From Candidatus Parcubacteria bacterium (lineage in GTDB: Bacteria > Patescibacteriota > Patescibacteriia > CAIXNZ01): a DNA stretch of 64,000 nucleotides. Of the stretch, positions 13,155 to 62,777 are shown in pieces (position 1 is the first letter of the stretch; the number at the start of each line of letters is the position of its first letter). A program made the position numbers and the translations under genes. Where the stretch lies: NCBI GenBank assembly GCA_026395685.1, contig JAPLYG010000008.1:15225-79224 (forward strand), read 5' to 3'. Below the pieces are notes generated by a model that saw only the letters and a list, made by a program, of their open reading frames with translations, had not been told where the DNA came from and made no database searches.

Positions 13155-13250
13155 GGCGAAAACGCCTGCCTCAATGTCACCCTGAGGCTCTCGAAGGGTG
13201 GCGCTCATGGTTCGAGAACCTCACCATGACAACAAAGGGCGTTTTCGCCC
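13154..13250. repeat. 97-bp element bounded by perfect 14-nt inverted repeat GGGCGAAAACGCC/GGCGTTTTCGCCC with internal hairpins
   Basis: Seen directly; second family member at 22070-22156. Confidence 0.6.
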
Positions 13251-13297
13251 AAACTAAACTTCGGCCTTCGGACTTCATCCTTCGGCCTTAAAACCCT

Positions 13298-15462: not shown

Positions 15463-15466
15463 AAAA

Positions 15467-15503
15467 AGACGCCGTCCGGATCCACCGAACGGCGTTTTTT
15501 TGT
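15467..15503 (+). terminator. rho-independent terminator after rplS
   Basis: GACGCCGT..ACGGCGT stem followed by T7 run. Confidence 0.7.
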
Positions 15504-15541
15504 TTAAAAGACGAAGCAGGTGCTTCGCCTTGTTAGACTTA

Positions 15542-15730
15542 CTACCCGAAAACCGGGCAGGCCAGTTCCCTGCAGCTTTCACAGCAGTTCGGACCCTTGG
15601 GCGCACAATGGCGTTCAAAATACCCGGGCTGTCGCAAACTTTCCAGTTCGCGCTCAATCGCCCCTGGATCAAAATCTTCCACGTCACCGTTAGTGCATAA
15701 AATCAGATTATCATCTTTTGCTATGGGCAT
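15542..15730 (-). CDS. small Cys-rich hypothetical protein (62 aa), SD-led
   Basis: AAGGAGG 5 nt before ATG; 6 Cys; GC-elevated segment. Confidence 0.5.
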   Translation of the reverse strand: MPIAKDDNLILCTNGDVEDFDPGAIERELESLRQPGYFERHCAPKGPNCCESCRELACPVFG

Positions 15731-19427: not shown

Positions 19428-20327
19428 TTACTTCAAATTATATTTGGCAATATTGTCATTGCAAATTTTCTGTAAAATTTTTATCTGTTCCGCTCCTTTC
19501 GGATCCTTGAACAAATGCTTAAACCTGGCGTGATACTTTAAATATTCATCAACCTTAGGAGCATCCTGAGGCACTTTCATGGAACTTACCAATTCCCCGT
19601 TGACAAATTCCACTACCGGGAAAAATCCTGTCTTTTGCGCCAATTTGCCTAGTTCAATCGCCTGATTATCCTCAATTCCCCAGCCTGGCACGCACGGCGT
19701 TAAAATATGGATAAACTTTGGGCCGGGTGTGTCCCAGGCTTTTTTTACTTTGCGTTTAATATCTTCAATATATCCTGAAGTAGTAGTTGCCACATAACCT
19801 ACTCGGTGCGCTAAAGCAATCTCCAACATATTTTTTTTAAACATTCTATTACCTAAAGATTTTTTACCTGGCCAGGTTGTGCGCGTAAAAGCGTCAAGAG
19901 GCGTAGCGCCTGAAGCCTGGTAGCCGGTATTGGAATAAACTTCGGTATCATAACAAACATATAAAATATTGTCCCCGCGCTCCCACATGCCGGAAATCAA
20001 ACCAAACCCAATATCAAAGGTGGAACCGTCACCGCCTTGCGCCAGGACTTTAACTTTTCCGTCCAGGCCTTTATGTTTTATAGCTGCTAAAATACCGGAG
20101 GCGACTGCTGAAGGATTTTCAAACAAAGAATGAATCCAGGGAACTTTCCAGCTTGAAGTCGGATGCTTTGATGTTGTCACTTCTAAACAACCCGTGGCAT
20201 TGGCAATAATTGTATCGGGACCGCAGGCGTCAATCACATGACGCGCAGCAATCAGCTGGCCGCAGCCCGGACAAGCAGTGTGGCCGGGATTGAGTAAGTG
20301 TTCGAATGGGTTAGTATATTTTGGCAT
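19428..20327 (-). CDS. porB: pyruvate:ferredoxin (2-oxoacid) oxidoreductase beta subunit (TPP-binding)
   Basis: CPGCGQLIAARHVI, GGDGSTFDIGF TPP motifs. Confidence 0.85.
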   Translation of the reverse strand: MPKYTNPFEHLLNPGHTACPGCGQLIAARHVIDACGPDTIIANATGCLEVTTSKHPTSSWKVPWIHSLFENPSAVASGILAAIKHKGLDGKVKVLAQGGDGSTFDIGFGLISGMWERGDNILYVCYDTEVYSNTGYQASGATPLDAFTRTTWPGKKSLGNRMFKKNMLEIALAHRVGYVATTTSGYIEDIKRKVKKAWDTPGPKFIHILTPCVPGWGIEDNQAIELGKLAQKTGFFPVVEFVNGELVSSMKVPQDAPKVDEYLKYHARFKHLFKDPKGAEQIKILQKICNDNIAKYNLK

Positions 20328-26282: not shown

Positions 26283-28001
26283 ATGGTATTTAAAAAACCA
26301 CACATTCCCCATCGCGAGGGAAATTATTCAAAAGAACCCAAATTACGCATCATGGTTTTGGGCGGGCTGGAAGAAGTCGGCCGCAACATGACTGTTTTAG
26401 AATTTGGCAATGACATTATTATTGTTGACATGGGCCTGATGTTTCCCGAAGAAGACATGCCGGGCATTGATTATATTATTCCCAATATCTCCTACTTTAA
26501 AGGTAAGGAAAAAAATATTCGCGGCGTAATTATTACTCATAGCCACATGGATCATATCGGCGGCATTCCTCACATAATGCCCAAAATCGGCAATCCCATT
26601 ATTTATACCGCCAAATTATCAGCCGGTATTATTCAAAAAAGGCAGGAGGAATATAAGTCAGCTCCAAAACTCAAATTTTACATCATTGATGAAAACACCC
26701 ATTTGAAACTGGGAAATTTCAATGTAGAATTTTTCCGAGTTAATCATAATGTGCCTGACAGCTTTGGCGTTGTGATCAAAACTCCGATCGGAACTATTGT
26801 GCATACCGGAGATTTTAAAATTGATCATTCCCCTATTAATGACAAGCCTGCTGACCTGGGCCGCATTGCTCAAATCGGCTCCCAGGGAGTCTTGGCTTTA
26901 ATGGCTGATTCCACTGATGCCGAACATGAAGGCTATCAGATTTCTGAAGCCAGAGTCGGCGAAGAATTGGAAGGTATTTTTGAAAAAGCGACCAACCGCA
27001 TTATTATCGGCACGTTTGCTTCACTCTTAAATCGCGTTCAGCAAGTTATTACTATCGCTGAAAAATTCGGACGCAAAGTTATGATTGAAGGCCGCAGCAT
27101 GACAACCAATGTAGAAATTGCCCATCAGCTCGGCTATATGAAAATCAAGCCAGGCACTTTATTGGAAGCAGAACATTATAATGAAAAAAAATATCCTGAT
27201 GATAAAATTGTGATTATCGGCTCCGGCGCTCAAGGTGAACAAAATGCCTTTTTAGTACGCTTTGCAGAAGATGAACATCGTTTTTTGCATATTAAAGAGG
27301 GCGATACTGTTATTTTTAGTTCCTCGGTTATTCCCGGCAATGAACGCACGATTCAAAATTTAAAGGATACTTTTTATCGCAAAGGCGCCAGAGTTATCCA
27401 TTACAAACTTATGGATGTTCATGCCGGCGGACACGCCAAAAAAGAAGATTTAAAACTATTGATCCGTTTAATCAAGCCTAAATATTATTTTCCGATCGAA
27501 GCCAACCATTATATGCTGCGCTTAAATGGCGAAATTGCGGAAAGTTTGGGAATACCCAAGGATCATATTTTTATTGCTGAAAATGGACAAGTAGTAGAAT
27601 TTACCCACAATGCCGGACACTTAACCCCGGAAAAAGTCCCGACCGATTATGTAATGGTGGACGGACTGGGAGTCGGCGATGTATCAGATATTGTTTTGCG
27701 TGATCGTCGGGTCATGGCTGCTGACGGCATGATTGTAATTATTGCCACCATTGATCGTAAAACCGGAAATATAATCGGCAATCCTGATATTATTTCCCGC
27801 GGTTTTGTTTATATGAAAGAAAATAAAGAATTGATTGAAACGACCAGAATGAAAGCCAAAAAAATATGCGGAGACACCGATCCTAAATCACCGGCTTTCG
27901 ATGATTATATTAAAAATAAAATCCGCGATGATATTGGCCAGTATCTCTATATTAAAACCAAACGACGACCCATGATTTTACCCGTAGTAATTAAAGTCTA
28001 A
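26283..28001 (+). CDS. rnj: ribonuclease J (metallo-beta-lactamase/beta-CASP)
   Basis: ITHSHMDHIGGIP, beta-CASP motifs, 572 aa. Confidence 0.9.
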   Translation: MVFKKPHIPHREGNYSKEPKLRIMVLGGLEEVGRNMTVLEFGNDIIIVDMGLMFPEEDMPGIDYIIPNISYFKGKEKNIRGVIITHSHMDHIGGIPHIMPKIGNPIIYTAKLSAGIIQKRQEEYKSAPKLKFYIIDENTHLKLGNFNVEFFRVNHNVPDSFGVVIKTPIGTIVHTGDFKIDHSPINDKPADLGRIAQIGSQGVLALMADSTDAEHEGYQISEARVGEELEGIFEKATNRIIIGTFASLLNRVQQVITIAEKFGRKVMIEGRSMTTNVEIAHQLGYMKIKPGTLLEAEHYNEKKYPDDKIVIIGSGAQGEQNAFLVRFAEDEHRFLHIKEGDTVIFSSSVIPGNERTIQNLKDTFYRKGARVIHYKLMDVHAGGHAKKEDLKLLIRLIKPKYYFPIEANHYMLRLNGEIAESLGIPKDHIFIAENGQVVEFTHNAGHLTPEKVPTDYVMVDGLGVGDVSDIVLRDRRVMAADGMIVIIATIDRKTGNIIGNPDIISRGFVYMKENKELIETTRMKAKKICGDTDPKSPAFDDYIKNKIRDDIGQYLYIKTKRRPMILPVVIKV

Positions 28002-28149
28002 GACATAAATATTCCTAAAAAATTCCCCCTAATATGGGGAATTTTTTAATTATTAGTAGATTAGTATGGTATTAGTAAATTAGTAGCCTAACTAAACCGA
28101 AGCAATGCCCTAAAACCCTTTATTCTTAGCCAAAACCAGCCACTCAGCA

Positions 28150-28178
28150 TTGACAAAATCAAGTATTTATGCTAATAT
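28150..28178 (+). promoter_or_regulatory. promoter P1 TTGACA-N17-(TG)CTAATAT for GC-rich block gene A
   Basis: Perfect -35, 17-nt spacer, extended -10; same architecture at 30652 and 33386. Confidence 0.55.
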
Positions 28179-28359
28179 TCCCTATTAAAGTAATTATTTA
28201 AGCTATTGAAATAAGGTAATAATTGTTATCTTATTTTAGTAGCTTATTGCTGCTGAATTTGCGAAGGGAGAAACAATACCCTTTTCACATAGATAAAGTG
28301 TTTTTCAGACAAAGAACTTTGACAACTTTACGCATAACAACCAAAAAGGAAGGTGAAAG

Positions 28360-29838
28360 ATGGATAGGAAAAACCTGACGGAAGTGATTCCGGGAGTATT
28401 GTATGACACCACCGTAGGGGATGATTCTCCGCTGCTTTTCAAGACCCAACCCGACGTCCTGTACGACGATGAGGGCCTGGAAATCAGCATCATCGTTGGC
28501 GACTTTGAACTCAAGTGTAAAAGCGAAGAGTTCAACAATAAAACACAGCTCAATTTCCACGAACCACAGGAGCTGCAAGCCAACCTGACGACGATCCTTA
28601 CATCGATCGTTTTCAGTAACAACGCCGAAGACAGCGACCCAACGTGGAAGTACGTGAGTAAAGGAATGGTCGGGGAAATCAAAGGAACTGCCGCGTCCAC
28701 GGCCAAAGAAACCGAGGATGCCGCGCCCATTCCCATGCCCCCCCTGATTGCGGAGGAAAAACCCGAGGCCATTCCCGCTCCACCCGCCGACGAGGAAAAA
28801 AAACCTGAGCCGGCAAAAGACCCGGAACCGCCAAAGCCCTGGGACGAGGAAGAAGAATTTGAGGACTTTCCCGATTTCCCCGTTGACGAGGGGAAAAAAC
28901 CCGAGCCTGAAAAAGCTCCGGAATTCCCAAGGCCCGGGGAAGAAGAAGATCCTTTCCGTTTTGATGTACGAGAACCCGAGCCTGAAAGAGCGCCAATACC
29001 GCCGCGACCCAGGGAAGACTGGGATCGCCCCGCGGATGAAACAGACGATGACATTTTAAGCCATCGCCGCCCACTTCCCCGACGGGAAGAACCGCCTGAA
29101 GAGGAGGCACCGATGAAACGAGGGATTCTCACTTACATTTTGGCGGCAATCGGGATCATCCTGATTTCCGCAATGCTGATTCTTCTGGGTCTCTTTCTCG
29201 GAACCTGGTGGGGTCAAGCCGACATTGACCGCCTGAAGGCCGACAACGGGAAACTCCAGCAGGAGATGAAGGGACTGAAAGCCCTGAATCCGCAAATCAA
29301 AAAGCTGCAGGAGGACATAGTCATTCTTCAGCAGGATAACCGGCTCTACAAGCTGAAAGCGGACCGCTACAGCCAGATTCTCACGAAACTGCTGTGGCCT
29401 ATTCCCGATGACTCGGAGCTGCAAAACTTCGATGTCAACAATAATTTCTGCGCTAACTGGTGCCAGTGGTTGAAGGAGAGCCTTCCCCTGGTTCGCCAGG
29501 ACGCGAAGGCCAACTGTCCGGCATGTTCCAAGCCGGTTGTGCAATCTAGCCGCAACACGAACGTAAAAAAGGCAGTTGCGGCTTGCCCGACTTGCCCGCC
29601 GGCCACTTGCACGAATTGTGTGGAAAGGGATAAAATCTATCCGACGACTCCGCAACAAGTACAGACCCCACCGGAACAAGTGCAGTCCCCGCCGCCACCG
29701 CAGCCTCAACCGGCTACGGAAAACGGTCCGAGGACAAAAGTTTACCCCGGAACTCCGGCGCCCGGTCCTGTCCAACAGGCAAACGCTCCGGCTCCGGAAT
29801 CCAACACCACCGTCAGAACACAAACTATCGACCCCTGA
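28360..29838 (+). CDS. GC-rich bitopic membrane protein: cytoplasmic N-domain with Pro/Glu-rich PEP repeats, TM, coiled coil, Cys-rich region, Pro-rich tail ending TQTIDP
   Basis: 492 aa; TM GILTYILAAIGIILISAMLILLGLF; codon GC3 much higher than neighbours; antisense ORFs are artefacts of high GC. Confidence 0.7.
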   Translation: MDRKNLTEVIPGVLYDTTVGDDSPLLFKTQPDVLYDDEGLEISIIVGDFELKCKSEEFNNKTQLNFHEPQELQANLTTILTSIVFSNNAEDSDPTWKYVSKGMVGEIKGTAASTAKETEDAAPIPMPPLIAEEKPEAIPAPPADEEKKPEPAKDPEPPKPWDEEEEFEDFPDFPVDEGKKPEPEKAPEFPRPGEEEDPFRFDVREPEPERAPIPPRPREDWDRPADETDDDILSHRRPLPRREEPPEEEAPMKRGILTYILAAIGIILISAMLILLGLFLGTWWGQADIDRLKADNGKLQQEMKGLKALNPQIKKLQEDIVILQQDNRLYKLKADRYSQILTKLLWPIPDDSELQNFDVNNNFCANWCQWLKESLPLVRQDAKANCPACSKPVVQSSRNTNVKKAVAACPTCPPATCTNCVERDKIYPTTPQQVQTPPEQVQSPPPPQPQPATENGPRTKVYPGTPAPGPVQQANAPAPESNTTVRTQTIDP

Positions 29839-29876
29839 TCCCTTTAAGGGACAACTTCTTTCACAAGGAGAAAGAA

Positions 29877-30590
29877 ATGAAGAAATTTTTCTACGGCATC
29901 GTAATTCTGATGATCATCGGCTTCGTGTTCCCGGCTCTGGCTGACAGCAATGTCCCGAGCAGGGAATCCAACACGCCGATGGCCTTCCCCACGAAACCGA
30001 CCGTCACCTGGGGAGCGAACAACTACCTGAACGTGGCTCTCCCCGAAAACCCGAGCGTTCCCCTGGTGTTCGGCTACAACGGGAATGGATTTCCCGGCGG
30101 CACCAACTGGCAGATCACGGAAAAGCAAAACTCGCCGAGCGAGCCCCTGCTTTTCACCGTGGAAGTCCAGCTTCCGGGCAGCGCCTACACCGGCCTGACC
30201 CCGAGCATGCTGATCAACACCAGCAAAGCGAACGAGGGCGAAAGATCCGGAATCAACCCCTGGTCTTCCGCCGCCGGCCTGCCTGACAAAGCGCAGTGCC
30301 GGGTCAAAGACGGTCGCTTCCAGTGTCGCTCCGGCTGGGCTGGACAATGGGAAGACGTCAAGATGCCCAATGCCAATTCCGAGGACATCGTCATCTACGA
30401 GCGCGACGTCCCCGACCCCGAGCATCCCAGCCGGGTCGGTGGCAAACTCTGGGTGATCTACAACACCAAGACTGGTGAGACCATCGTGATTTATCCCAAC
30501 ATCACGGGCCTCTACCGTACCATCCGATACGGATTTGCCGCAACCGGCGGAACCATTCTGCTGTGCTTCGTGGCTTTCTTTGTCATTTGA
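29877..30590 (+). CDS. GC-rich secreted protein with MKKFF signal peptide and C-terminal hydrophobic anchor (GG-TILLCFVAFFVI)
   Basis: SD AAGGAG 6 nt upstream; signal peptide MKKFFYGIVILMIIGFVFPALA; 39-nt gap from gene A suggests co-transcription. Confidence 0.65.
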   Translation: MKKFFYGIVILMIIGFVFPALADSNVPSRESNTPMAFPTKPTVTWGANNYLNVALPENPSVPLVFGYNGNGFPGGTNWQITEKQNSPSEPLLFTVEVQLPGSAYTGLTPSMLINTSKANEGERSGINPWSSAAGLPDKAQCRVKDGRFQCRSGWAGQWEDVKMPNANSEDIVIYERDVPDPEHPSRVGGKLWVIYNTKTGETIVIYPNITGLYRTIRYGFAATGGTILLCFVAFFVI

Positions 30591-30604
30591 ACACAAATGA
30601 ATAC

Positions 30605-30641
30605 AAGCCGAGTATGCCTTTAAGGCAGCTCGGCTTTTTTA
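30605..30641 (+). terminator. rho-independent terminator after gene B
   Basis: AAGCCGAG...CTCGGCTT + T6. Confidence 0.65.
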
Positions 30642-30651
30642 TTTCAATTTA

Positions 30652-30680
30652 TTGACAAAAGTTATAGAATCTGCTAATAT
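30652..30680 (+). promoter_or_regulatory. promoter P2 TTGACA-N17-(TG)CTAATAT
   Basis: Same architecture as P1/P4. Confidence 0.55.
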
Positions 30681-30768
30681 CTTATATTAAACTATAAATT
30701 ATAGTTACTACGTACATTTATAAAATTTTAACCCTAAACACTTCCCTACGGGGAGCAAAGGAGTCAAG

Positions 30769-31467
30769 ATGAAGAAATTCTTTGTGATCATGTTTTTGCT
30801 GGTAGTAGGCTTTACGGTCTTGGCTCAGGCCGAGCCGGCACAGCCTCCGCCTGCGAGCAACCAGCCGGGCGTACTGCCCAATGTTAATGTCATTGTCCCT
30901 CCCTACTTATGGATTGATAACTTTGTAACCGGGGAAAATGGCATTCTGGAACACCATGTTGCCAACCTGAGACTTATTCAGGAATGGCTGCGTGATAATC
31001 CCTCCGACATTGCTGCTTTGATCGGCATGGTCTCTGACCTGAAAATCAGAGGCTATTGCTACTACAATTATTCAACAGGCTTTTATAGTCTGAAGTACAA
31101 TCAAGCCGGCAGTACTGTCAATCAGGGAGATCGAGTCTGCCAGGAAGCCCTGTCGCTCAGCCGGGCAATTTCCATCCGCAACTGGTTGCTTACGCCGCAA
31201 AACTGGCTAAAAGACAAACAGGGCAATCCCATTAAAATTGATGAGTTCCGTATCAGAATCCTGGATGTGAAAGCTCTGGGATTACGCGGGGGCGGCAACT
31301 TTCCCAACCAGTCAGTCGCTGTCTGGATGCTGTCTTTTAATCAGGCAAAGCAAGGTCCTGGCATTCTGACGCTGACGCAGGGCCCTCCTGCGCCCGTGCC
31401 AACGCCCGAGATAGCTCCTCGCAGGCGACCCAAGACAACGATCTATACTCAGAAAATTGACCCTTGA
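30769..31467 (+). CDS. GC-rich secreted protein with MKKFF signal peptide, Pro-rich tail ending YTQKIDP
   Basis: SD AAAGGAG; signal peptide MKKFFVIMFLLVVGFTVLAQA; C-terminus shares TQxIDP with gene A. Confidence 0.7.
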   Translation: MKKFFVIMFLLVVGFTVLAQAEPAQPPPASNQPGVLPNVNVIVPPYLWIDNFVTGENGILEHHVANLRLIQEWLRDNPSDIAALIGMVSDLKIRGYCYYNYSTGFYSLKYNQAGSTVNQGDRVCQEALSLSRAISIRNWLLTPQNWLKDKQGNPIKIDEFRIRILDVKALGLRGGGNFPNQSVAVWMLSFNQAKQGPGILTLTQGPPAPVPTPEIAPRRRPKTTIYTQKIDP

Positions 31468-31477
31468 TTTAAAATCA

Positions 31478-31510
31478 ACCGGGCAGTGAGTTTTCACTCG
31501 CCCGGTTTTT
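31478..31510 (+). terminator. rho-independent terminator after gene C
   Basis: CCGGGCAGTGAG..TCACTCGCCCGG + T5. Confidence 0.6.
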
Positions 31511-31836
31511 CTTTTCTAAATATTTGCTAAAATATTATTCGCACGGTATATTGCAACTATATGATAGGTAAGTATGCTTTTTACATTCTAATTTTGGCTA
31601 ACTTAGGATAATCCCTTAAAATATTGACTTTTTATAAAGCAAATGATAAACTCCCATATCAAGTAAGAATAAGCTTTTTAAAAGAATTCATTTGTCTAAA
31701 TTGATTCTTTCAAGCAGCTTAAAAGCTGTTGAGAATAATAGGTTGAGTTTTTTCCATAAACCAAAAGTGTTTTGTTATTTCACAAAAATTCTCCCTCACG
31801 GGAGACTAGATTTCCCTGAAGGGAAAGGAGGATCAA

Positions 31837-33183
31837 GTGATGATCAGAAATAAGATGACCTTGCTCTTGCTTTGGATCAGTTTTTTTGCCATTGGCGCCT
31901 CCGGGCAGTTCAACTGCATTGACGGTGATGTGCACGAAGGTGATAAAAACTACTATGGCGATCGTGATCCTGACGGCGACGGTTATAATAACCGAGTTGA
32001 TTGCAGTGATCAGGATCCCAATCGTTGGGTATTCATCATTGCATATCCTGACCATGATGGTGACGCTATGCCTGAACAAGGCCCGACCATTAATATCTGC
32101 TCCGGCACTACAACTCATGCCCCTGCGGGCTGGACTTTCAATGACTCACCAATGGATCCCTGCCCCAATGATCCCGAGAACATCTGCGGGGTAACAGTTC
32201 CATTTTGCCAGCTCGCTGGCGTTGCCAATGGCCATACGACTACCCTAACTGCCACAGCTACTTACACCAATGGCTCCTTTGACCGAGTGATTTTCTACGC
32301 AGGAAATATGGTGGTCAAAACTGATACCACTCCAGCTGACGGCTGGACTGCTATCCTAACCAATGTCCCCAACGGTGTTTACACCTACCATGCCATTGCC
32401 TTTGCCACTGACGGCAATTCTGCCTTGTCTAACTTTGTTACCATTACCATCAATGACACTGGCGCTTGTATGCCGACACTGACCATCACATGGGCTTATG
32501 CCATTGCTCCTGAGAAAACCTACTATGGTGGCTGGTTTGGTTCTTGCTTTACCAGCATTTTCGGACAAGATCCCTGGTGGCAGTTTGGACCGTTTAGCAG
32601 CTGCCATGAATGCAGCCAATCCGGCGTAGTTTTTCCCGGTAGTTTGAATTTGGGCTTTTGCGAATTCAGTGGCACTGTGCCCAGAAGCCTGAACGAAAAT
32701 CCAACAGCGCCCTTTACCACCGATCGCGGTGATATTGTGGACTATTTCATTACCGGCTATCCTGACGGACACATTTATAATGGCTTGGCTCCTGGATCGC
32801 CGGCAGCTTACTTCGACAACTGTGCCAGTATTATTCAGCTCTCAGTAGCTCAGATAAATCATCCGTGGGGTGCCAACTATTTCATTGCCTTTACTGCCCC
32901 GCTGGCAGGTAATACGGCTAATATCTTCGTTACCTCGCCGATTGACTCTGATAGTGACGGCTGGATGAATGCTTGTCCTCCCAACACAACTTGTCAGGCG
33001 GATAACTGTATCCGTTTTGAAAATCAGACCCAGCTGGATTCAAACAGCGATGGAGTCGGTGATGCCTGTACTGCCAATCCTGACCCGAATTTTTGGGATC
33101 AAGATAATGACTGGTACTTGGACGGACCCAATGTTGCGGAATCTGATCGGGATCATTACCCGACTGATAGAACCCGGCATTAA
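31837..33183 (+). CDS. secreted Ca-binding protein with thrombospondin type-3-like Asp-rich repeats and Ig-like domain (paralog D, moderate GC3)
   Basis: Signal peptide; DPDGDGYNNRVDCSDQD, DSDSDGWMNACP, DSNSDGVGDAC motifs; SD AAGGAGG; ends PTDRTRH. Confidence 0.8.
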   Translation: MMIRNKMTLLLLWISFFAIGASGQFNCIDGDVHEGDKNYYGDRDPDGDGYNNRVDCSDQDPNRWVFIIAYPDHDGDAMPEQGPTINICSGTTTHAPAGWTFNDSPMDPCPNDPENICGVTVPFCQLAGVANGHTTTLTATATYTNGSFDRVIFYAGNMVVKTDTTPADGWTAILTNVPNGVYTYHAIAFATDGNSALSNFVTITINDTGACMPTLTITWAYAIAPEKTYYGGWFGSCFTSIFGQDPWWQFGPFSSCHECSQSGVVFPGSLNLGFCEFSGTVPRSLNENPTAPFTTDRGDIVDYFITGYPDGHIYNGLAPGSPAAYFDNCASIIQLSVAQINHPWGANYFIAFTAPLAGNTANIFVTSPIDSDSDGWMNACPPNTTCQADNCIRFENQTQLDSNSDGVGDACTANPDPNFWDQDNDWYLDGPNVAESDRDHYPTDRTRH

Positions 33184-33196
33184 ATTTTAACTATTA

Positions 33197-33237
33197 CGGG
33201 CTGCGACTTAGACACATCTAAGCCAGCCCGTTTTTTT
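33197..33237 (+). terminator. rho-independent terminator after paralog D
   Basis: CGGGCTG-CGACTTAGACACATCTAAG-CCAGCCCG + T7; near-identical copy after paralog E. Confidence 0.7.
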
Positions 33238-33385
33238 ATTGAAAAAAGATCTCCAAAAATTACATTTCTTACCCTTTTATCCCTGTCTGCGAAATTACCC
33301 ATAAATACGCCTAAAACCACATTTTTAAAATTGCTTATTTTAGCTAATTTTACCCTAATTCTAGCCAAAATAAAACATCAACCTC

Positions 33386-33414
33386 TTGACATTTGCAAAA
33401 AAATATGCTAATAT
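33386..33414 (+). promoter_or_regulatory. promoter P4 TTGACA-N17-(TG)CTAATAT for paralog E
   Basis: Same architecture as P1/P2. Confidence 0.55.
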
Positions 33415-33660
33415 ACCCTATTAAACTAATCTTAGATAAAAGCCGAATTTAAGCTATTAAAAAGAGTTATATAATAATTAATTCTTTTTAGCAGCTTAAT
33501 AAGCTGTTTTGGATATTTAGAGAAATAAAAGCATGGACTTTAACTCCTGCTTATTGACATAGATGGTTAAGCATTTTTGGATAAAGGAATTTGTTTTTTG
33601 ACAACACCCTACTCTCCCCCAAAGGAGACGATTTTCCCCGCGGGGGAAAAGGAGAATACC

Positions 33661-35001
33661 ATGAACGCGAAAAGACTTATTACGGTTCTTCTGGTTCTCG
33701 GCTGTTTGACTTCGACCATGGGTGCGACCTGCATCGACGGCGACCTCAACGAGGGCGACAAAACCGTCATCAACAAAAACGACCACGACAACATCGACAC
33801 TGACGGCGACGGCGTGCTCGACATCAACGACTGCGCCCCGCTCGACCCGAGCAAGTGGGCCGAGAAAGATGCCCGCCCCGACACTGACGGCGATAACCTG
33901 CCCGAAAATGGACCGGCAATGCAGGTCTGCAGTGGGAACACCACCCCTGCGCCTATTGGCTGGACCTGGGTGGCTTCGCCGCTCGATCCCTGCCCCAATG
34001 ACCCGCAGAACATCTGCGGTACGGTCAATCCGACCTGCCAGATCACAGCGGTGGCCAGCGGCCACACTGTGTCCCTCACGGCGACTGTCGCTTACACGAG
34101 CGGCACTATCGCCCGAGTGGAATTCTATAAGGGTATCACGCTGATCGGGACGGACAACACAGCCAGCAATGGCTGGAATCTGACCTGGACCAACGTGCCG
34201 AATGGGACCTACACGCTTCAGGCCATTGCGTTTGCCTCTGACGGCAAGACCGCAACCTCTAACGAGGTCACGGTTACCGTCAATGTCGGCGCTCCGACAT
34301 GCGTGCCCACGCTGGCAATTAGCTGGGGCTATAACATTCCCCAGAACACGACCTACTACAACTCGTGGTATGGATCCTGTTTCACCACCTTCGACGGCCA
34401 GGACCCCTGGTGGCAGTATGCGCCCTATGGCTACTGCCGCGAGTGCGCTCAGGCTGACGAAGTGTTTGCCGGAAGCTTCAACGAGGGTTTCTGTGATTTC
34501 AACAACACGGTTCCCAAAGTGCTTAACGGCAACCCGCTCGCTCCGTTCACCACGGATCGTGGCGACATCGTTGACTATGCCCTTGTCGGTTACACTGACG
34601 GGCATATGTACAACGGTCTGGCCCGCATGCCGACTGCGACCTTCAACAACTGCATTACTACGGTCAGTCTGCCTGTGGTCCCCGTGAACCAGGCCTGGGG
34701 TGCGAACTTCAGGGTGTATTTTACGGATGCGGTCGATCCGATTGATGGGGACACCATCAACGTGATCGTCAGCACGCCGATCGATTCCGACAACGACGGT
34801 TTCCCGAATGCCTGCCAGCCCGGCACCACGTGTCAGGCCGACAACTGCATTCGCTTCGAGAATCCCGAGCAGACCGACACCGACCATAACGGCGTCGGCG
34901 ATGCCTGCACGAACCATGCCAATCCGGACGAGAACGATCCGGACAATGACTGGTTCATGAATTTCGAAGACGCATTTCCGTATGATCGGACGCGTCATTA
35001 G
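33661..35001 (+). CDS. secreted Ca-binding TSP3-like repeat / Ig-like protein (paralog E, very high GC3); start at MNAKRL
   Basis: Internal ATG with SD GGAGA 5 nt upstream and a signal peptide right after; ORF-track extension to 33577 reads through the leader; long minus-strand ORF 33517..35034 is a GC artefact; ends PYDRTRH. Confidence 0.8.
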   Translation: MNAKRLITVLLVLGCLTSTMGATCIDGDLNEGDKTVINKNDHDNIDTDGDGVLDINDCAPLDPSKWAEKDARPDTDGDNLPENGPAMQVCSGNTTPAPIGWTWVASPLDPCPNDPQNICGTVNPTCQITAVASGHTVSLTATVAYTSGTIARVEFYKGITLIGTDNTASNGWNLTWTNVPNGTYTLQAIAFASDGKTATSNEVTVTVNVGAPTCVPTLAISWGYNIPQNTTYYNSWYGSCFTTFDGQDPWWQYAPYGYCRECAQADEVFAGSFNEGFCDFNNTVPKVLNGNPLAPFTTDRGDIVDYALVGYTDGHMYNGLARMPTATFNNCITTVSLPVVPVNQAWGANFRVYFTDAVDPIDGDTINVIVSTPIDSDNDGFPNACQPGTTCQADNCIRFENPEQTDTDHNGVGDACTNHANPDENDPDNDWFMNFEDAFPYDRTRH

Positions 35002-35014
35002 AACTTGACTACAA

Positions 35015-35056
35015 ACGGGTTGCGACTTAGACAAATCTAAGCCAGCCCGTTTTTTA
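35015..35056 (+). terminator. rho-independent terminator after paralog E
   Basis: Same CGACTTAGACA(A/C)ATCTAAGCCAGCCCG hairpin as after D. Confidence 0.7.
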
Positions 35057-35311
35057 TTTATACGAATATTATTTTATATACAACGAATGGCAGATTAATC
35101 ATCTTAATTAACCTTGCGCAGAGTATCCTTATAAAATGTAATAGGTGAAGCTTTATTATGCGAATATTATTTTTATACTGCGAATAACTGATTTTGAAAT
35201 ACTCTTCCAATTACCAATGCCTAATGCCCAATACCAAATTACAGTCTATTTACAGCCAGAGTATAATTAAGTAGAATTAATATATTGTATATACTGGTAA
35301 CCAATCAAACC

Positions 35312-35340
35312 TTGACAAAACGCTAAAATTATAGTAAAAT
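35312..35340 (+). promoter_or_regulatory. putative promoter TTGACA-N17-TAAAAT for rnpB
   Basis: Located ~35 nt upstream of the predicted RNase P RNA 5' end. Confidence 0.45.
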
Positions 35341-35371
35341 ATCCATATAACTGAACACTATTGTTCAGTAG

Positions 35372-35968
35372 CTAAATATCCAAACAAGCAGATGATCACC
35401 CCTCCGAAGCTTTAGCAAAGGAGGGGAGGAAAGTCCGGACTTTATGCCCTGCTCCGCACCGGAGATTCTAAATCCAAAAATCCTAAATCTTAAACATTTT
35501 TTAATTTTGTTATTTGAACATTTGAATTTGTTTGAAATTTGGTGCTTGAGATTTGGTGCTTCCGTTGCGGAGCAACGGTAAGGGTAACGGGTAACGCCCG
35601 CCCGTTTAATAGCAATATTAAATGAGGACCAGTGCCACAGAGACAATTCTAGCGAGTCCCGCTTTGCGGGGCGGGGTTGACTCGGCGGCTTATAAGCCGC
35701 CTCGCCAAAGGTGAAAAGTATCTCGATGTTTTTTGTTCTCGAGACAAAAGGCTACGAGAATCGGCCTCTGGCAACAGAGTGTCCGCGGTAAACTCTACCT
35801 AAAGCAAGGACAAACCCACCCCAGCGCAAGCAACGGTGGTGACAAGTAGTCCGCTAGAGCTCGGCAGCAATGCCCAGCCCAGATAGATGATCATCCTTCG
35901 ACAACCTCAGGATAATCTCCTGATAAGTCGAGGACAAAATCCGGCTTATAGTTTGTTTGGATATTCAG
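35372..35968 (+). ncRNA. rnpB: RNase P RNA (bacterial type A) with large AT-rich insertion
   Basis: GGAGGGGAGGAAAGUCCGG (P4), GGGUAACGCCCGCCC, GACCAGUGCCACAGAGAC, AAGGUGAAA, ACAAAAUCCGGCUUAUAG match universally conserved RNase P RNA regions in order; P1 pairing AUAUCCAAACAA/UUGUUUGGAUAU. Confidence 0.85.
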
Positions 35969-35999
35969 CTATAATTTTAAATTTATAAAATATTCTATT

Positions 36000-37454
36000 A
36001 TGTCTAATATGTCCGCCAGAGGCGGAAAAAAGACAGCGCTGATTTTTACTATAATTTTATTGCCTCTTGATTTCCTGATGCTGATTTTTGCATCGTTAAC
36101 AGCCTACTCTTTACGTGTCGGCTCTTTTGTTACTGAAATTAGGCCGGTTATCTACACTTTGCAATTTTCCGAGTATCTATTTTACAGCATTCTGGTTTCT
36201 TTAATCTGGCTTTTTATCTTTGCCTTTGCCGGATTATATAAAATCGAAAGGCGCAAATTTAATGATGAATTTGTTAAAATTATCCTGGCTTGTTCCACCG
36301 GCATTTTGGCAATTATCGTGGCTATTTTTTTAAAAAGAGAATTATTTTCTTCCCGCTTTATTATCCTGGCTGCCTGGGGCTTGAGTATTTTATATGTAAC
36401 TCTGGGCCGTTTAATTATTTCTCAAATTCAAAAATCACTTTTGAAAAAAGGAATTGGCGCAAGAAAAATCGTAATCATAGGCAATGACAAAAACACCAAG
36501 ATTATTGGCGAAGAGATTAAAAATCACGCTAAATTAGGCTACCAAATAATTAAAACTTTTCCCAGCTATAATGAAACTATTAAAACTGAGTTGTTGAAAC
36601 TGATTAGCCAGGGACAATTAGATGAGATTGTCCAGGCTGATCCAAACTTGGACCGCCAGGCTACTTCTGATCTAATTGATTTTACTGAAGCCCACCACAT
36701 TACTTTCAAATTTACTGCCGATATTTATCGCACCAAAACTTCGCGCCTGGAAATCGACACTCTGGCAGGCTTGCCCATTTTTGAAATTGCAAAAACCAAG
36801 CTTGAAGGCTGGGGCCGAATTTATAAGCGAATTTTTGATATTATAACCGCCCTTATTTTGATTATTATATTTTCACCTATATTAATTATTACCGCTATTG
36901 CCGTAAAATTAAATTCCCGCGGACCAATTATTTATAAAAATATCCGCGTCGGCCAGGACGGCAAGGAATTCAATCTTTTCAAATTCAGATCAATGTATTA
37001 TGAGTTTAGTACTGGTGTCGGTAATCCGGAACAGCAACAAAAAGCCTTGGCTATGGAAAAAGAACTGATTGCCAAACAAAATGTACGCGAAGGCGCCTTA
37101 TATAAAATTAAAAATGATCCCAGAATAACAAAAGTCGGAAAATTTACCAGAAAATGGAGCATTGATGAGCTGCCGCAATTTTTTAATGTTTTATTTGGAC
37201 AAATTAGCTTAGTCGGGCCGAGGCCTCATCAACCCCGCGAAGTTGCCAAATATACGCAATCTCAATTACGAACTCTAGACATCAAGCCCGGGGTAACTGG
37301 TCTGGCGCAAATTTCAGGACGATCTGATTTGGATTTTGACGAAGAAGCTAAGCTGGATATTTACTATATAGAAAACTGGTCGCTTTGGCTCGACATAATT
37401 ATTTTGCTCAGAACTCCAAAAGTCGTGCTTTCCCCAAAGCGCGAAGCGCTTTAA
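36000..37454 (+). CDS. polyprenyl-phosphate sugar phosphotransferase (WbaP/exopolysaccharide initiating enzyme family)
   Basis: Multi-TM N-terminus; C-terminal bacterial sugar transferase domain (KFRSM, DELPQFFNVLFGQISLVGPRP). Confidence 0.85.
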   Translation: MSNMSARGGKKTALIFTIILLPLDFLMLIFASLTAYSLRVGSFVTEIRPVIYTLQFSEYLFYSILVSLIWLFIFAFAGLYKIERRKFNDEFVKIILACSTGILAIIVAIFLKRELFSSRFIILAAWGLSILYVTLGRLIISQIQKSLLKKGIGARKIVIIGNDKNTKIIGEEIKNHAKLGYQIIKTFPSYNETIKTELLKLISQGQLDEIVQADPNLDRQATSDLIDFTEAHHITFKFTADIYRTKTSRLEIDTLAGLPIFEIAKTKLEGWGRIYKRIFDIITALILIIIFSPILIITAIAVKLNSRGPIIYKNIRVGQDGKEFNLFKFRSMYYEFSTGVGNPEQQQKALAMEKELIAKQNVREGALYKIKNDPRITKVGKFTRKWSIDELPQFFNVLFGQISLVGPRPHQPREVAKYTQSQLRTLDIKPGVTGLAQISGRSDLDFDEEAKLDIYYIENWSLWLDIIILLRTPKVVLSPKREAL

Positions 37455-47487: not shown

Positions 47488-48060
47488 TTATTTACTTAAT
47501 AATTTTAAACATAATTTTAATTTTTCATCCATACCCAATTCCTTATCCACTTGCCTTAAGGCGCCCCGCGCCTGATCAGCAGAATACCCCAATCCGATTA
47601 AACCGTCAATTACATCCGCGTCGCTATTGTTCTTGCCGTTTAAGGAAGCGGGCGCTACTTTGCCTTTGTACTTGCTTTTTAACTCCAGGACAATCCTTTC
47701 CGCAGTTTTGGCTCCAATACCTGAAACTTTAGTCAAAACCGACACATCGTCATTAATAACTGCGGTTTCAATTTCCTCAATTGTCGCAGCTGATAAAACC
47801 CCCAAAGCTGTCTTTGGCCCAATACCCGAAACCCCGATCAATTTCTCAAATAATTCCATTTGCTCACGATTATCAAACCCGAATAAATCCAAAGCATCCT
47901 CGCGCACATGCTGGTGGGTAAAAATTTCCACTTCCTTGCCGACCTTAACTGAATTTAAAAAATCTTCGGTCACAAAAACTTTGTAGCCAATATTGTTTAT
48001 CGCCAGTTCAATGAAATTTTGACCAATGTATTGAATCGTACCCTTAAGATAACTAATCAT
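47488..48060 (-). CDS. ruvA: Holliday junction branch-migration complex subunit RuvA
   Basis: MISYLKGTI start, HVREDALDLFGF, GIGPKTAL HhH motifs. Confidence 0.85.
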   Translation of the reverse strand: MISYLKGTIQYIGQNFIELAINNIGYKVFVTEDFLNSVKVGKEVEIFTHQHVREDALDLFGFDNREQMELFEKLIGVSGIGPKTALGVLSAATIEEIETAVINDDVSVLTKVSGIGAKTAERIVLELKSKYKGKVAPASLNGKNNSDADVIDGLIGLGYSADQARGALRQVDKELGMDEKLKLCLKLLSK

Positions 48061-62581: not shown

Positions 62582-62777
62582 CCTTTTCTTTACCAACGCT
62601 TTGGTTTCCGGTTCGAATCGCGTTAATGACCCCCCACTGCACGAACGAGCCACTATAGTGGTTCGTTTTAGTTTCATAAAAATACAAACGATGCTTCATC
62701 CCGCCCCGCACTTGCGAAGCATAGTGCGGGGTCCGGTCCACTGCAAGAACGTTCCATGAAAGTGGGGCGTTTTTAGT

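What the first reader, a model, noticed from the sequence alone, without database searches (positions are those of the whole stretch)
28144..35056. GC-rich five-gene block of secreted/membrane proteins behind cloned host-type promoters
Between rnj and rnpB, five genes (A 28360, B 29877, C 30769, D 31837, E 33661) have markedly higher GC than the surrounding genes, while the intergenic DNA between them is AT-rich and host-like. Four promoters share TTGACA-N17-TGCTAATAT followed by (C)CTATTAAA, and every gene has a canonical SD, unlike the SD-less housekeeping genes. Products are a bitopic membrane protein with cytoplasmic PEP-repeat domain, two MKKFF-signal-peptide secreted proteins and two TSP3-repeat Ca-binding proteins. 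This looks like one regulon of cell-surface or attachment proteins of foreign or specially maintained composition, possibly a symbiont-host interaction module.
Basis: partly seen in the sequence, partly recalled or inferred. Interest (0 to 1): 0.78.

Follow-up and report, generated by a model that had tools for sequence, protein, structure and literature searches.

The report
GC-rich envelope-protein gene island, Parcubacteria
An AT-rich, symbiont-type bacterium keeps a fast-evolving cluster of cell-surface protein genes in which only the coding sequences use GC-rich codons, each gene sitting behind its own strong promoter and a conserved RNA hairpin; related genomes share this feature, so it is neither a foreign insert nor an assembly error.

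Summary
Genes A-E (28360-35001, + strand) have GC3 of 0.49-0.77, against 0.24-0.47 for the other genes of the window. The spacers between them are 30-32% GC, no higher than other spacers.

The block is not foreign and not chimeric:
- Seven related Parcubacteria/Falkowbacteria-type genomes (RNase J 80-89% identical), plus an eighth from an ENA assembly, carry the same kind of island at the same place, after rnj.
- The gene families occur in the same order: a membrane protein, an OmpA-like peptidoglycan binder, then Ig/TSP3 lipoproteins.
- Across seven genomes, 33 island genes exceed 84 flanking genes by +0.22 GC3 on average (p=5e-16).
- Orthologues whose synonymous sites are near saturation keep the same composition.
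- No homologues were found outside the clade.

Nearly every island gene has its own expression cassette: terminator, consensus extended -10 promoter, long AT-rich leader, strong Shine-Dalgarno. About half of the leaders (17 of 33) carry a covarying stem-loop found nowhere else in 1.3 Mb. Most other genes of the window have no Shine-Dalgarno.

The codon shift is mainly NNU to NNC and UUA to CUG/CUC, in all seven genomes.

Best reading: an inherited, rapidly diverging envelope module built for strong expression, with coding composition maintained by selection on the mRNA or its translation. The cause of the GC-richness remains inferred.

The parts
28150..28190 (+). Promoter of the A-B operon (TTGACA-N14-TGCTAATAT) followed by the conserved TCCCTATTAAAG initial transcribed sequence
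   Evidence: Exact consensus match. 27 nt are 93% identical to the E promoter region.
28195..28257 (+). Leader stem-loop of gene A, a copy of the island-specific RNA motif
   Evidence: MFE stem of 22 bp. Covariance model R1 scores 58.7 bits. Covariation across 16 leaders.
28360..29838 (+). Gene A (492 aa), a bitopic membrane protein. It has an N-terminal domain, an acidic P/E-rich linker, a TM segment at about residues 256-285, a coiled coil, a Cys-rich ectodomain and a P/Q-rich tail ending TQTIDP. GC3 is 0.60.
   Evidence: Residues 312-389 are 42% identical to the first island gene of L004. Only weak coiled-coil/TM matches to DivIC and Rz spanins, which I rejected.
29877..30590 (+). Gene B (237 aa), a secreted protein with an MKKFF signal peptide and a hydrophobic C-terminal anchor. 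It is co-transcribed with A (38-nt gap, own SD at 29864-29874). GC3 is 0.77.
   Evidence: No family match. The only homologue seen is the 25-codon tail on the close-strain contig L084.
30605..30641 (+). Intrinsic terminator after B
   Evidence: GC-rich hairpin followed by a T-run, read from the sequence; coordinates.
30652..30680 (+). Promoter of gene C (exact consensus)
30741..30763 (+). Short hairpin (CTTCCC-TAC-GGGGAG) abutting the SD of C
   Evidence: Conserved in L084.
30769..31467 (+). Gene C (232 aa), a secreted, divergent OmpA_C/Pal/MotB-like peptidoglycan-binding protein with a P-rich tail ending TQKIDP. GC3 is 0.57.
31477..31510 (+). Intrinsic terminator after C
31624..31652 (+). Promoter of gene D, a weaker variant (TTGACT-N14-TGATAAACT)
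31666..31737 (+). Leader stem-loop of gene D
   Evidence: R1 scores 63.6 bits; alignment A3.
31790..31831 (+). Two short GC hairpins; the second (TTTCCC-TGAA-GGGAAA) runs directly into the SD AAGGAGG
31837..33183 (+). Gene D (447/448 aa; the start is GTG 31837 or ATG 31840), a secreted Cys-rich protein with TSP3-like Ca-binding motifs and one Ig-like (Big_7) domain. It is a paralogue of E (51-57% identical, depending on the aligner). GC3 is 0.49.
33196..33237 (+). Intrinsic terminator after D, 95% identical over 41 nt to the E terminator
33386..33426 (+). Promoter of gene E (exact consensus) plus ACCCTATTAAAC
33446..33515 (+). Leader stem-loop of gene E
   Evidence: R1 scores 69.2 bits; MFE stem.
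33613..33650 (+). Two short GC hairpins immediately upstream of the SD of E. They are conserved, with changed loops, in the orthologous leaders of L001 and L082.
33661..35001 (+). Gene E (446 aa), a lipoprotein (lipobox LVLGC) with TSP3-like motifs, one Big_7 Ig domain (about residues 123-208) and an uncharacterised Cys-rich domain. The C-terminus is FPYDRTRH. GC3 is 0.74.
   Evidence: The orthologue P0002 (64% identical) lies in the same synteny in GCA_041308785.1.
35015..35055 (+). Intrinsic terminator after E, marking the end of the island. The rnpB promoter follows at 35312.
   Evidence: The same terminator follows the orthologue in L001.

Best explanation
What it is (shown). This is a vertically inherited, fast-diverging cell-envelope gene island of one Parcubacteria clade related to Falkowbacteria. 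It always lies just downstream of rnj.
- It encodes a bitopic membrane protein (A-like), an OmpA-like peptidoglycan-binding secreted protein (C-like), and one or more lipoproteins built from Big_7 Ig-like domains and TSP3-type Ca-binding motifs (D/E-like). Lineage-specific extras such as B are added.
- Almost every gene is its own transcription unit: intrinsic terminator, near-consensus TTGACA/extended -10 promoter, a conserved start region, an AT-rich leader of up to about 250 nt (some are only 50-120 nt), often a small hairpin abutting a strong SD, then the gene. Leaders of 17 of the 33 island genes carry a covarying stem-loop.
- This sits in a genome whose other genes mostly lack an SD.

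How it works (inferred).
- The cassette looks like a device for strong expression from stable mRNAs of abundant envelope proteins.
- The GC-richness is a property of the translated part only. It is kept by selection on the coding mRNA: codon choice, mainly NNU to NNC and UUA to CUG/CUC, possibly together with mRNA stability.
- A secreted-protein amino-acid composition adds to it: more Pro, Thr, Gly, Cys and Trp; less Lys, Ile, Leu and Glu.
- Foreign origin does not explain it.
For: Conservation and synteny.
- Relatives with RNase J 80-89% identical (L002, L004, L005, L006, L007, L009, plus L083 and L001/L082) carry 2-7 GC-rich signal-peptide or lipoprotein genes right after rnj.
- The gene-family order is conserved at only 23-45% identity.
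- 33 island genes against 84 flanking genes give a GC3 excess of +0.223, Mann-Whitney p=5e-16.

The composition is maintained.
- E and its orthologue are 64% identical, while the neighbouring sugar transferase is 74% identical.
- 4-fold sites are 0.43 identical, against 0.32 if saturated. Both genes keep the same 4-fold composition (A 7-10%, C 41%, G 33-34%, T 16-17%).
- D and E are fully saturated against each other.

The excess is limited to coding sequence. Island spacers are 31.2% GC against 34.1% elsewhere.

Codon signature.
- In 7 of 7 genomes the C-ending codons for Phe, Ile, Asn, Asp, Tyr and His rise by 0.22-0.38.
- C-ending codons gain +0.167 on average; G-ending codons gain only +0.067.
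- NNC/(NNC+NNT) is 0.23-0.25 in rnj and PFOR, 0.37 in ribosomal protein L19, and 0.41-0.77 in the block.

Expression cassette.
- Promoters, SDs, and the architecture repeated across relatives.
- Stem-loop: 93% of cells paired, and 9 of 17 pairs show compensatory changes. 0 of 500 shuffles reach this, and slid controls give 34-58% pairing. Frequent G-U pairs fit the sense RNA.
- Model R1 hits only island leaders in 1.31 Mb, and it recovers one leader that was held out.
- Genes with the stem-loop have the larger GC3 excess (0.27 against 0.17, p=0.002).
- An independent metagenome scan for the promoter gave 12 sites with a proper -35. Those with readable downstream sequence have bodies of 47-53% GC, and 7 carry island-family homologues.

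Protein functions.

Purifying selection on C: dN/dS is 0.12 against the close strain L084.
Against: - There are no expression data. 'Highly expressed' is inferred from the signals alone.
- Only one ribosomal protein gene (L19) is available as a reference. Its GC3 is 0.34 and its NNG fraction is 0.17, so the block is not simply the highly-expressed-gene dialect of this genome.
- G-ending codons, GC1 and GC2 also rise. In E the NNG fraction (0.72) equals the NNC fraction (0.68). That looks more like a general GC pull.
- Slow-growing bacteria with a single rRNA operon usually show little translational selection (established knowledge).
- Three other orphan genes with an SD and a consensus promoter have ordinary GC3 of 0.35-0.47.
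- The promoter of D is weaker and D has the lowest GC3. C has a perfect promoter yet only 0.57, so any dose relation is loose.
Confidence: 0.5

Rival explanations
1. Foreign origin. The block was acquired by horizontal transfer from a GC-rich donor, recently or in the clade ancestor, and has not yet ameliorated.
For: GC, GC1, GC2 and GC3 are all raised, much as in a gene from a genome of about 58% GC. rnpB-type RNA genes are classical island insertion points. The Big_7 domain of E is 40-58% identical to domains in unrelated bacteria such as Sulfurimicrobium. Known Patescibacteria hosts are GC-rich (bioRxiv 10.64898/2026.06.21.733656).
Against: - The same island sits at the same site in at least 8 diverged genomes.
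- Synonymous sites are near or at saturation, yet the composition is unchanged. Neutral amelioration should have erased it.
- Spacers are native and AT-rich, with host-type promoters.
- Among 5.8 billion proteins, full-length relatives of D/E number three, and the two with names are from Parcubacteria. The C family has 15 clusters among 1.84 billion representatives.
- No integrase or flanking direct repeats, and no phage, plasmid or defence match.
- In most relatives the island abuts trpS, not rnpB.
Confidence: 0.1
2. Recombination-driven GC enrichment. The island is a recombination hot spot for surface-antigen diversification, and GC-biased gene conversion has raised its GC, as proposed for recombining bacterial genes and as seen at the GC-rich vls locus of Borrelia.
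For: - Against the close strain L084, gene C has pS 0.37. The adjoining C-D spacer is 98.8% identical and part of C is almost free of synonymous change.
- Third-position differences are clumped (p=0.012), which suggests a mosaic.
- The proteins diverge very fast.
- Borrelia vls cassettes are 49% GC in a 28.6% GC genome (PMC11499132).
Against: - The excess stops at the start and stop codons. Island spacers are no richer in GC than other spacers, which a regional conversion bias does not predict.
- The shift is asymmetric: C-ending +0.167, G-ending +0.067.
- There are no silent cassettes.
- gBGC effects reported in bacteria are a few percent, from my own knowledge.
Confidence: 0.15
3. Deliberately host-like or non-optimal codons. 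GC-ending codons are poorly read by the symbiont's own tRNA pool, so translation of these mRNAs is throttled, for example for co-translational export and disulfide folding. Alternatively, it becomes efficient only under special conditions.
For: Patescibacteria codon usage is reported to be complementary to that of their GC-rich hosts, so the island genes use the 'wrong' dialect. The proteins are exported and Cys-rich (2.5% against 0.8%). NNG codons rise although L19 avoids them.
Against: The strongest promoters and SDs in the window would be odd partners for throttled translation. The largest shifts are to NNC codons, which are read by Watson-Crick pairing with GNN anticodons and are usually the efficient choice (established knowledge). 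L19 leans the same way for NNC (0.37).
Confidence: 0.12
4. Artefact. Either an assembly chimera joins GC-rich foreign contig pieces to the Parcubacteria contig, or the GC excess merely reflects amino-acid composition.
For: MAG contigs can be chimeric. The proteins are rich in Pro, Gly, Thr and Ala.
Against: - Five alternations between GC-rich coding sequence and AT-rich spacer carrying native promoters cannot come from a single join.
- Independent assemblies reproduce the junctions: GCA_041308785.1 contigs L001 and L082, Logan contig L084, ENA L083, six GTDB genomes and JGI contigs.
- GC3 and 4-fold sites are shifted, not only GC1 and GC2.
Confidence: 0.02

Closest known systems
OmpA_C / Pal / MotB peptidoglycan-binding domain family (Pfam PF00691), for gene C and its family
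   Different: - It scores below Pfam's gathering cut-off (best 23.8 bits against 27.2, and that in a relative rather than in C itself).
- It has an extra Cys-containing insertion.
- It is a stand-alone secreted protein with a P-rich ...TQKIDP tail, or in relatives a Gly-rich hydrophobic tail, rather than a barrel or lipoprotein fusion.
- The Asp of the GHTD-type motif is not conserved in all members.
Bacterial surface proteins built from Big_7 Ig-like domains and thrombospondin type 3 (TSP3) Ca-binding repeats, for example the Myxococcus MtsC-type cell-cohesion proteins (NCBIfam NF047638), for D and E
   Same: Big_7 domains number 1 in D/E and up to 10 in the relative L005. TSP3-like D-x-D-x-D-G motifs are present, as are lipoprotein or secretory signals.
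   Different: The matches to MtsC and TSP_3 are far below threshold (22 bits against 350; 21 against 25). The central Cys-rich GQDPWWQ domain and the ...(F/Y)PxD(P/R)T(R/K)H C-terminus have no described family. Only three full-length members exist among 5.8 billion proteins.
Borrelia vls antigenic-variation locus, a GC-rich surface-protein locus in an AT-rich genome
   Same: Surface-protein coding DNA is about 20 points richer in GC than the genome. The excess is conserved across strains and regarded as selectively maintained (PMC11499132).
   Different: vls has a strong positive GC skew (0.52), G-runs, promoterless silent cassettes and segmental gene conversion. Here the skew is slightly negative, every gene has its own promoter, and there are no cassettes.
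Protochlamydia amoebophila lgr genes ('large G+C-rich genes' of an AT-rich symbiont)
   Same: A lineage-restricted paralogous family of putative interaction proteins is markedly richer in GC than the genome, and has no whole-length homologues elsewhere (PMC2216083).
   Different: lgr genes are dispersed, encode LRR proteins, are partly linked to a conjugative island, and arose by recent duplication. Here the genes form one syntenic locus with a dedicated leader RNA.
High-expression, stable-mRNA cassettes of envelope genes (E. coli ompA 5' UTR stem-loops, S-layer gene leaders, the Bacillus cryIIIA STAB-SD); from my own knowledge, not tested here
   Same: A strong promoter, a long structured 5' UTR with a hairpin close to a strong SD, and a strong terminator, all on genes for abundant envelope proteins.
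   Different: Function here is inferred from sequence only. The stem-loop lies about 25-85 nt from the predicted start site rather than at the 5' end. No Rfam family matches it.
Horizontally acquired genomic islands
   Same: Atypical composition, surface-protein cargo, and position next to an RNA gene (rnpB) in this genome.
   Different: It lacks the defining features. See the membership test.

Membership tests
OmpA_C-like peptidoglycan-binding domain (gene C) | Sequence match to the family profile at the curated threshold | tested here: not met
   C itself has no Pfam hit. The best relative reaches 23.8 bits against a gathering score of 27.2.
OmpA_C-like peptidoglycan-binding domain (gene C) | Significant profile-level similarity restricted to family members | tested here: met
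   The 8-sequence profile A5 searched against PDB gives 28 hits, all OmpA/Pal/MotB/YiaD-type, best E=1.4e-4.
OmpA_C-like peptidoglycan-binding domain (gene C) | The beta-alpha-beta-alpha-beta-beta fold | tested here: met
OmpA_C-like peptidoglycan-binding domain (gene C) | Conserved Asp/Arg pair that contacts the peptidoglycan stem peptide, and actual peptidoglycan binding | tested here: inconclusive
   The Arg (R132) is invariant and the Asp (D90) is present in C. The Asp is replaced in several relatives. Binding cannot be tested with these tools.
Big_7 bacterial Ig-like domain (D, E) | Pfam PF17957 at the gathering score | tested here: met
   E scores 37.5 bits against 24.1. D scores 21.9, just below. 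Relatives carry 3-10 copies. The AF2 model is confident only for this domain.
Thrombospondin type 3 repeat proteins (D, E) | Pfam PF02412 at the gathering score | tested here: not met
   E scores 21.0 bits against 25. Relatives are likewise below threshold. The D-x-D-x-D-G motifs are visible in the sequence.
Horizontally acquired genomic island | Mobility genes or flanking direct repeats | tested here: not met
   No integrase or transposase among the ORFs. No repeats flank the block. No PHROG or PADLOC hit apart from a weak coiled-coil match.
Horizontally acquired genomic island | Patchy presence among close relatives, and homologues in a plausible donor | tested here: not met
   The island is present and syntenic in 8 of the 9 clade genomes whose contig extends past rnj, and absent only in L008. 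No homologues outside the clade. No phage or plasmid DNA match.
Horizontally acquired genomic island | Atypical composition across the whole inserted segment | tested here: not met
   Only coding sequences are atypical. The spacers are 31% GC.
Known cis-regulatory RNA families (Rfam 15) | Covariance-model match of the leaders | tested here: not met
   Only RNase P was found in 27900-36100 at E<=1.
Borrelia vls-type antigenic variation locus | Silent promoterless cassettes, strong positive GC skew and G-runs on the coding strand | tested here: not met
   Every gene has a promoter. GC skew is -0.04 to -0.12. The only paralogues are the two full-length genes D and E.
Highly expressed gene codon dialect of this genome | Same codon preferences as the ribosomal-protein genes | tested here: inconclusive
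   Only L19 is available. Its NNC fraction (0.37) leans the same way, but its NNG fraction (0.17) and GC3 (0.34) do not.

The most novel reading that the evidence does not exclude
The GC-rich, SD-led island mRNAs are written in the dialect of the GC-rich host rather than that of the symbiont. Their translation would depend on host material: either host tRNAs imported along with the host RNA that Patescibacteria are reported to take up, or, more radically, host ribosomes. Production of the attachment and envelope proteins would then be switched on by contact with the host. Nothing here tests this. It is merely not excluded. It would account for a distinct initiation mode (an SD in a largely SD-less genome) together with a distinct codon dialect in the same few genes.
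Probability: 0.04. Interest if true: 0.9.

Novelty: new variant of a known kind. Interest (0 to 1): 0.6.

Why it matters
Atypical composition is routinely read as horizontal transfer. Here a block that is 12-20 points richer in GC than its genome is instead inherited, confined to coding sequence, and stable over a divergence that saturates synonymous sites. Some force other than mutation bias therefore sets codon choice in a handful of genes of a tiny, presumably slow-growing bacterium.

The same genes carry a private expression system: a consensus promoter, a covarying leader stem-loop with no Rfam match, and a strong SD in a genome that otherwise largely lacks SDs. This gives a handle on gene regulation in uncultivated Patescibacteria.

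The proteins (a peptidoglycan anchor plus Ca-binding Ig lipoproteins, diverging several times faster than housekeeping proteins) are good candidates for the outer envelope or the host-contact surface of these episymbionts. No component of that surface is currently known for this clade.

Tried and rejected
1. A concatenated B+C query to the 5.8-billion-protein index returned nothing. This was an artefact: C is in the index (P0123).
2. A scan of genome contigs with the D/E alignment found no relative. The rnj-anchored scan was what brought in the relatives.
3. AF2 of E from a 3-sequence alignment failed (mean pLDDT 38; only the Ig domain is confident), so I did not attempt a fold search.
4. For A, the matches to DivIC (E=0.1), the Rz-like spanin (E=0.004), HALZ and IBR are only coiled-coil, TM or Cys-pattern resemblances. 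I rejected them.
5. The AimP and Bd0108 matches for B and C cover only the signal peptide. Rejected.
6. Exact look-ups of L19 and the ferredoxin subunit, meant to find more contigs of the close strain behind L084, found nothing. The genome-wide divergence of that strain is therefore unknown.
7. Global nucleotide identities of leaders between the window and L001/L082 were uninformative, because shuffled controls reached 0.68.
8. I considered the second TTGACA-like box about 30 nt upstream of the SDs as an inner promoter and dropped it, since no -10 element follows it.
9. I considered the stem-loop as an attenuator terminator and dropped it, since no U-run follows it.
10. Literature searches found no report of GC-rich envelope gene islands or of this leader in Patescibacteria.

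Full report
**1. Observation**

The window is 39.2% GC. Between rnj (26283-28001) and rnpB (about 35385-35964; Rfam RNaseP_bact_a, 99.7 bits) lie five + strand genes.

| Gene | Coordinates | GC | GC3 |
|---|---|---|---|
| A | 28360-29838 | 0.55 | 0.60 |
| B | 29877-30590 | 0.58 | 0.77 |
| C | 30769-31467 | 0.51 | 0.57 |
| D | 31837/31840-33183 | 0.49 | 0.49 |
| E | 33661-35001 | 0.58 | 0.74 |

(Values.)

- Credible genes elsewhere in the window have GC3 of 0.24-0.47.
- The spacers inside the block are 30-32% GC. Pooled they are 31.2%, against 34.1% for 27 other spacers.
- The fine-scale profile shows composition switching at the gene borders.
- The shift is synonymous. C-ending and G-ending codons rise for almost every amino acid. 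A-ending codons fall from 29% to 13%.
- Amino-acid composition also changes: more Pro, Thr, Gly, Cys and Trp; less Lys, Ile, Leu and Glu.

**2. Signals**

- The extended -10 promoter TTGACA-N14-TGCTAATAT is exact at 28150, 30652 and 33386. It is weaker at 31624.
- CCCTATTAAA follows the promoters of A and E.
- The same promoter type precedes rnpB, tRNA-Ala and a few other genes, so it is the organism's own.
- All five genes have strong SDs, whereas 33 of 41 genes in the window have none.
- A and B are one operon (38-nt gap). C, D and E each have their own promoter and terminator. The D and E terminators are 95% identical over 41 nt.

**3. Origin and relatives**

- E is identical to a protein of a 'Candidatus Parcubacteria bacterium' MAG (contig of 83,201 bp).
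- Only three full-length members of the D/E family exist among 5.8 billion proteins: E, D and P0002.
- P0002 lies on a 4.2-kb contig of GCA_041308785.1 (L001). The order there is the same: E-like gene, near-identical terminator, rnpB, sugar transferase.
- P0002 has GC3 0.70, against 0.46 for the neighbouring gene.
- A scan of species-representative genomes with RNase J gave 80 loci.
- Those with RNase J 80-89% identical and a contig extending past rnj (L002, L004, L005, L006, L007, L009) have 3-7 GC-rich signal-peptide or lipoprotein genes directly after rnj. These are followed by trpS, rnpB and the same glycosyltransferases.
- L008 has rnj directly followed by trpS.
- A further relative (L083) and a second contig of GCA_041308785.1 (L082) fit the same picture.
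- Over seven genomes, 33 island genes exceed 84 flanking genes by 0.223 in GC3 (p=5e-16). Island spacers stay at 25-35% GC.
- In 73 more distant loci, no island family member occurs near rnj. GC3 outliers there are rare and scattered.
- A metagenome scan for the promoter-plus-start motif gave 52 sites, 12 of them with a correct -35. Those with readable downstream sequence precede bodies of 47-53% GC, and 7 carry island-family homologues. The chance matches do neither.

**4. Gene families**

All-against-all comparison shows a conserved order.

- First comes an A-like bitopic membrane protein, which has the least GC enrichment.
- Then come one or more C-like proteins.
- Then come one or more D/E-like lipoproteins.
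- Identities are 23-45%, although RNase J is 80-89% identical.

C-like proteins are divergent OmpA_C/Pal/MotB domains.
- Pfam OmpA scores 5.6e-5 in the L009 member.
- The family profile hits only OmpA/Pal/MotB chains in PDB (28 hits, best 1.4e-4).
- The family is tiny: 15 clusters among 1.84 billion representatives.

D/E-like proteins combine 1-10 Big_7 Ig domains with TSP3-type motifs. B and the N-terminal half of A remain uncharacterised.

No match to phage, plasmid or defence libraries is of any weight.

**5. Not foreign, not chimeric**

- Independent assemblies reproduce the junctions between GC-rich genes and AT-rich spacers.
- E and P0002 are 0.43 identical at 4-fold sites, against 0.32 expected at saturation. 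The flanking housekeeping pair is at 0.51.
- Even so, E and P0002 have the same 4-fold composition. D and E are saturated against each other.
- Neutral decay towards the genome's AT bias should therefore have erased an ancestral foreign signal.
- Repeated replacement from GC-rich donors is unlikely, because no such homologues exist.

**6. Expression cassette and leader RNA**

Across the clade, nearly every island gene repeats the same layout: terminator, TTGACAAA-N14-TGCTA(A/C)AAT, CCYTATTAAAC, an AT-rich leader and AAGGAGG. About half of the leaders (17 of 33 genes) contain a long hairpin whose base is (T)AGGCTNYTGAAA ... TTTCAGTAGCTTAA.

- In an alignment of 16 leaders the 17-pair stem is 93% paired.
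- 9 pairs show compensatory changes. 0 of 500 shuffles reach this, and slid registers give 34-58% pairing.
- Frequent G-U pairs fit an RNA on the sense strand.
- A covariance model finds it only in island leaders within 1.31 Mb. It recovers one leader that had been left out of the model.
- Rfam has no match.
- Short GC hairpins abut the SDs of C, D and E and of their orthologues.
- Genes that possess the stem-loop have the larger GC3 excess (0.27 against 0.17, p=0.002).

**7. Why GC-rich**

Regional processes (a foreign block, biased gene conversion, a local mutation bias) predict GC-richer spacers. That is not seen.

- In all seven genomes the dominant change is NNU to NNC for Phe, Ile, Asn, Asp, Tyr and His (+0.22 to +0.38), plus UUA to CUG/CUC.
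- NNA to NNG rises only by 0.09-0.15.
- The NNC fraction runs from 0.23-0.25 (rnj, PFOR) through 0.37 (ribosomal protein L19) to 0.41-0.77 in the block.

This asymmetry, the sharp borders at the coding sequence and the strong expression signals favour selection acting on the translated mRNA. That selection could act on codon efficiency or accuracy, perhaps together with mRNA stability.

Several points count against a simple version of this.
- G-ending codons, GC1 and GC2 rise too.
- In E, NNG equals NNC.
- L19 has ordinary GC3.
- Three other strongly signalled orphan genes are not GC-rich.
- Strong translational selection is unexpected in such organisms.
- There are no expression data.

**8. 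Recombination**

A close strain (L084, a Logan assembly) has C at 88% amino-acid identity (dS 0.50, dN 0.063, ratio 0.12).

- The adjacent C-D spacer is 98.8% identical and the B-C spacer 92%.
- Differences are clumped (third positions p=0.012).
- Either alleles are mosaics produced by recombination, or the spacers are under very strong constraint.

This keeps the recombination/gBGC explanation alive as a contributor, but it does not explain why the excess is limited to coding sequence.

**9. Comparison with known systems**

- C belongs by fold and by profile to the OmpA_C-like superfamily, but falls below Pfam's threshold.
- D and E are new combinations of known modules with an undescribed central domain.
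- As a compositional phenomenon, the nearest precedents are the Borrelia vls locus (49% against 28.6% GC, with a strong positive skew and silent cassettes) and the Protochlamydia lgr genes. Both differ in architecture.
- A recent preprint reports that Patescibacteria codon usage is complementary to that of their GC-rich hosts and that they import host RNA. Against that background, a host-like codon dialect in a few envelope genes is notable. It motivates the speculative reading given in the section on the most novel reading.

**10. Verdict**

It is wrong in so far as it leans on foreign origin. It is untested on host interaction.
- The finding is a new variant of a known kind: a hypervariable envelope-protein locus.
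- It has two unusual, well-supported features: a long-maintained GC-rich composition limited to coding sequence, and a private leader RNA.
- The mechanistic cause of the composition is inferred only.

Noticed in passing
window 35385-35964 (insertion at about 35465-35575): The RNase P RNA gene scores 99.7 bits, just under Rfam's gathering score of 100. It carries an AT-rich insertion of about 110 nt that the orthologous rnpB of the relative L001 lacks.
   Followed up: partly
whole window, e.g. upstream of 19428-20327(-), 3125-7183(-), 47488-48060(-), 36000-37454(+): 33 of 41 genes have no Shine-Dalgarno sequence. Many have a TAnAAT box 7-10 nt before the ATG, which suggests that most mRNAs of this organism are leaderless.
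   Followed up: partly
window 2662-3021(-), 54734-55120(+), 56504-56953(+): Three small orphan genes outside the block also have consensus promoters and strong SDs, but ordinary GC3 (0.35-0.47). None has a Pfam match. The first is a very acidic 119-aa protein.
   Followed up: partly
window 3125-7183(-) and 7197-11480(-): Two tandem giant ORFs (1352 and 1427 aa). The first is full of a repeated '...ALKLIE...' motif of about 35 residues. Neither has any Pfam match.
   Followed up: no
L001 1971-2150; L083 13152-13325; L009 about 17990-18170: In relatives, a small SD-led zinc-ribbon gene (57-59 aa, with paired CPxC-type Cys motifs; GC3 0.50-0.53 in L001 and L083) sits between the last island gene and trpS or rnpB. 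It is missing from the window.
   Followed up: no
window 13155-13297, 15463-15710, 62678-62777: Three spacers are unusually GC-rich (51-55%) for this genome and may hold structured RNAs. The first two have no Rfam match at E<=0.1.
   Followed up: partly
window 29812-29838 and 31441-31467; C-termini of D, E and relatives: A and C, which are otherwise unrelated, end in the same tail...T(V/I)(R/Y)TQ(T/K)IDP. D/E-like proteins across the clade end in ...(F/Y)PxD(P/R)T(R/K)H. These may be sorting or docking signals.
   Followed up: no
window 30510-31730 versus L084 1-1229: Against a close strain, synonymous sites of gene C differ at 37%, while the adjoining 256-nt spacer is 98.8% identical. The strain also has a 31-nt insertion after the B terminator.
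   Followed up: partly
L083 7945-9662: In this relative, rnj is split into two ORFs. This is either a frameshift or a long-read assembly error.
   Followed up: no
window 28017-28047: The rnj terminator is a near-perfect palindrome with A/T runs on both sides, so it scores as a terminator on both strands.
   Followed up: no
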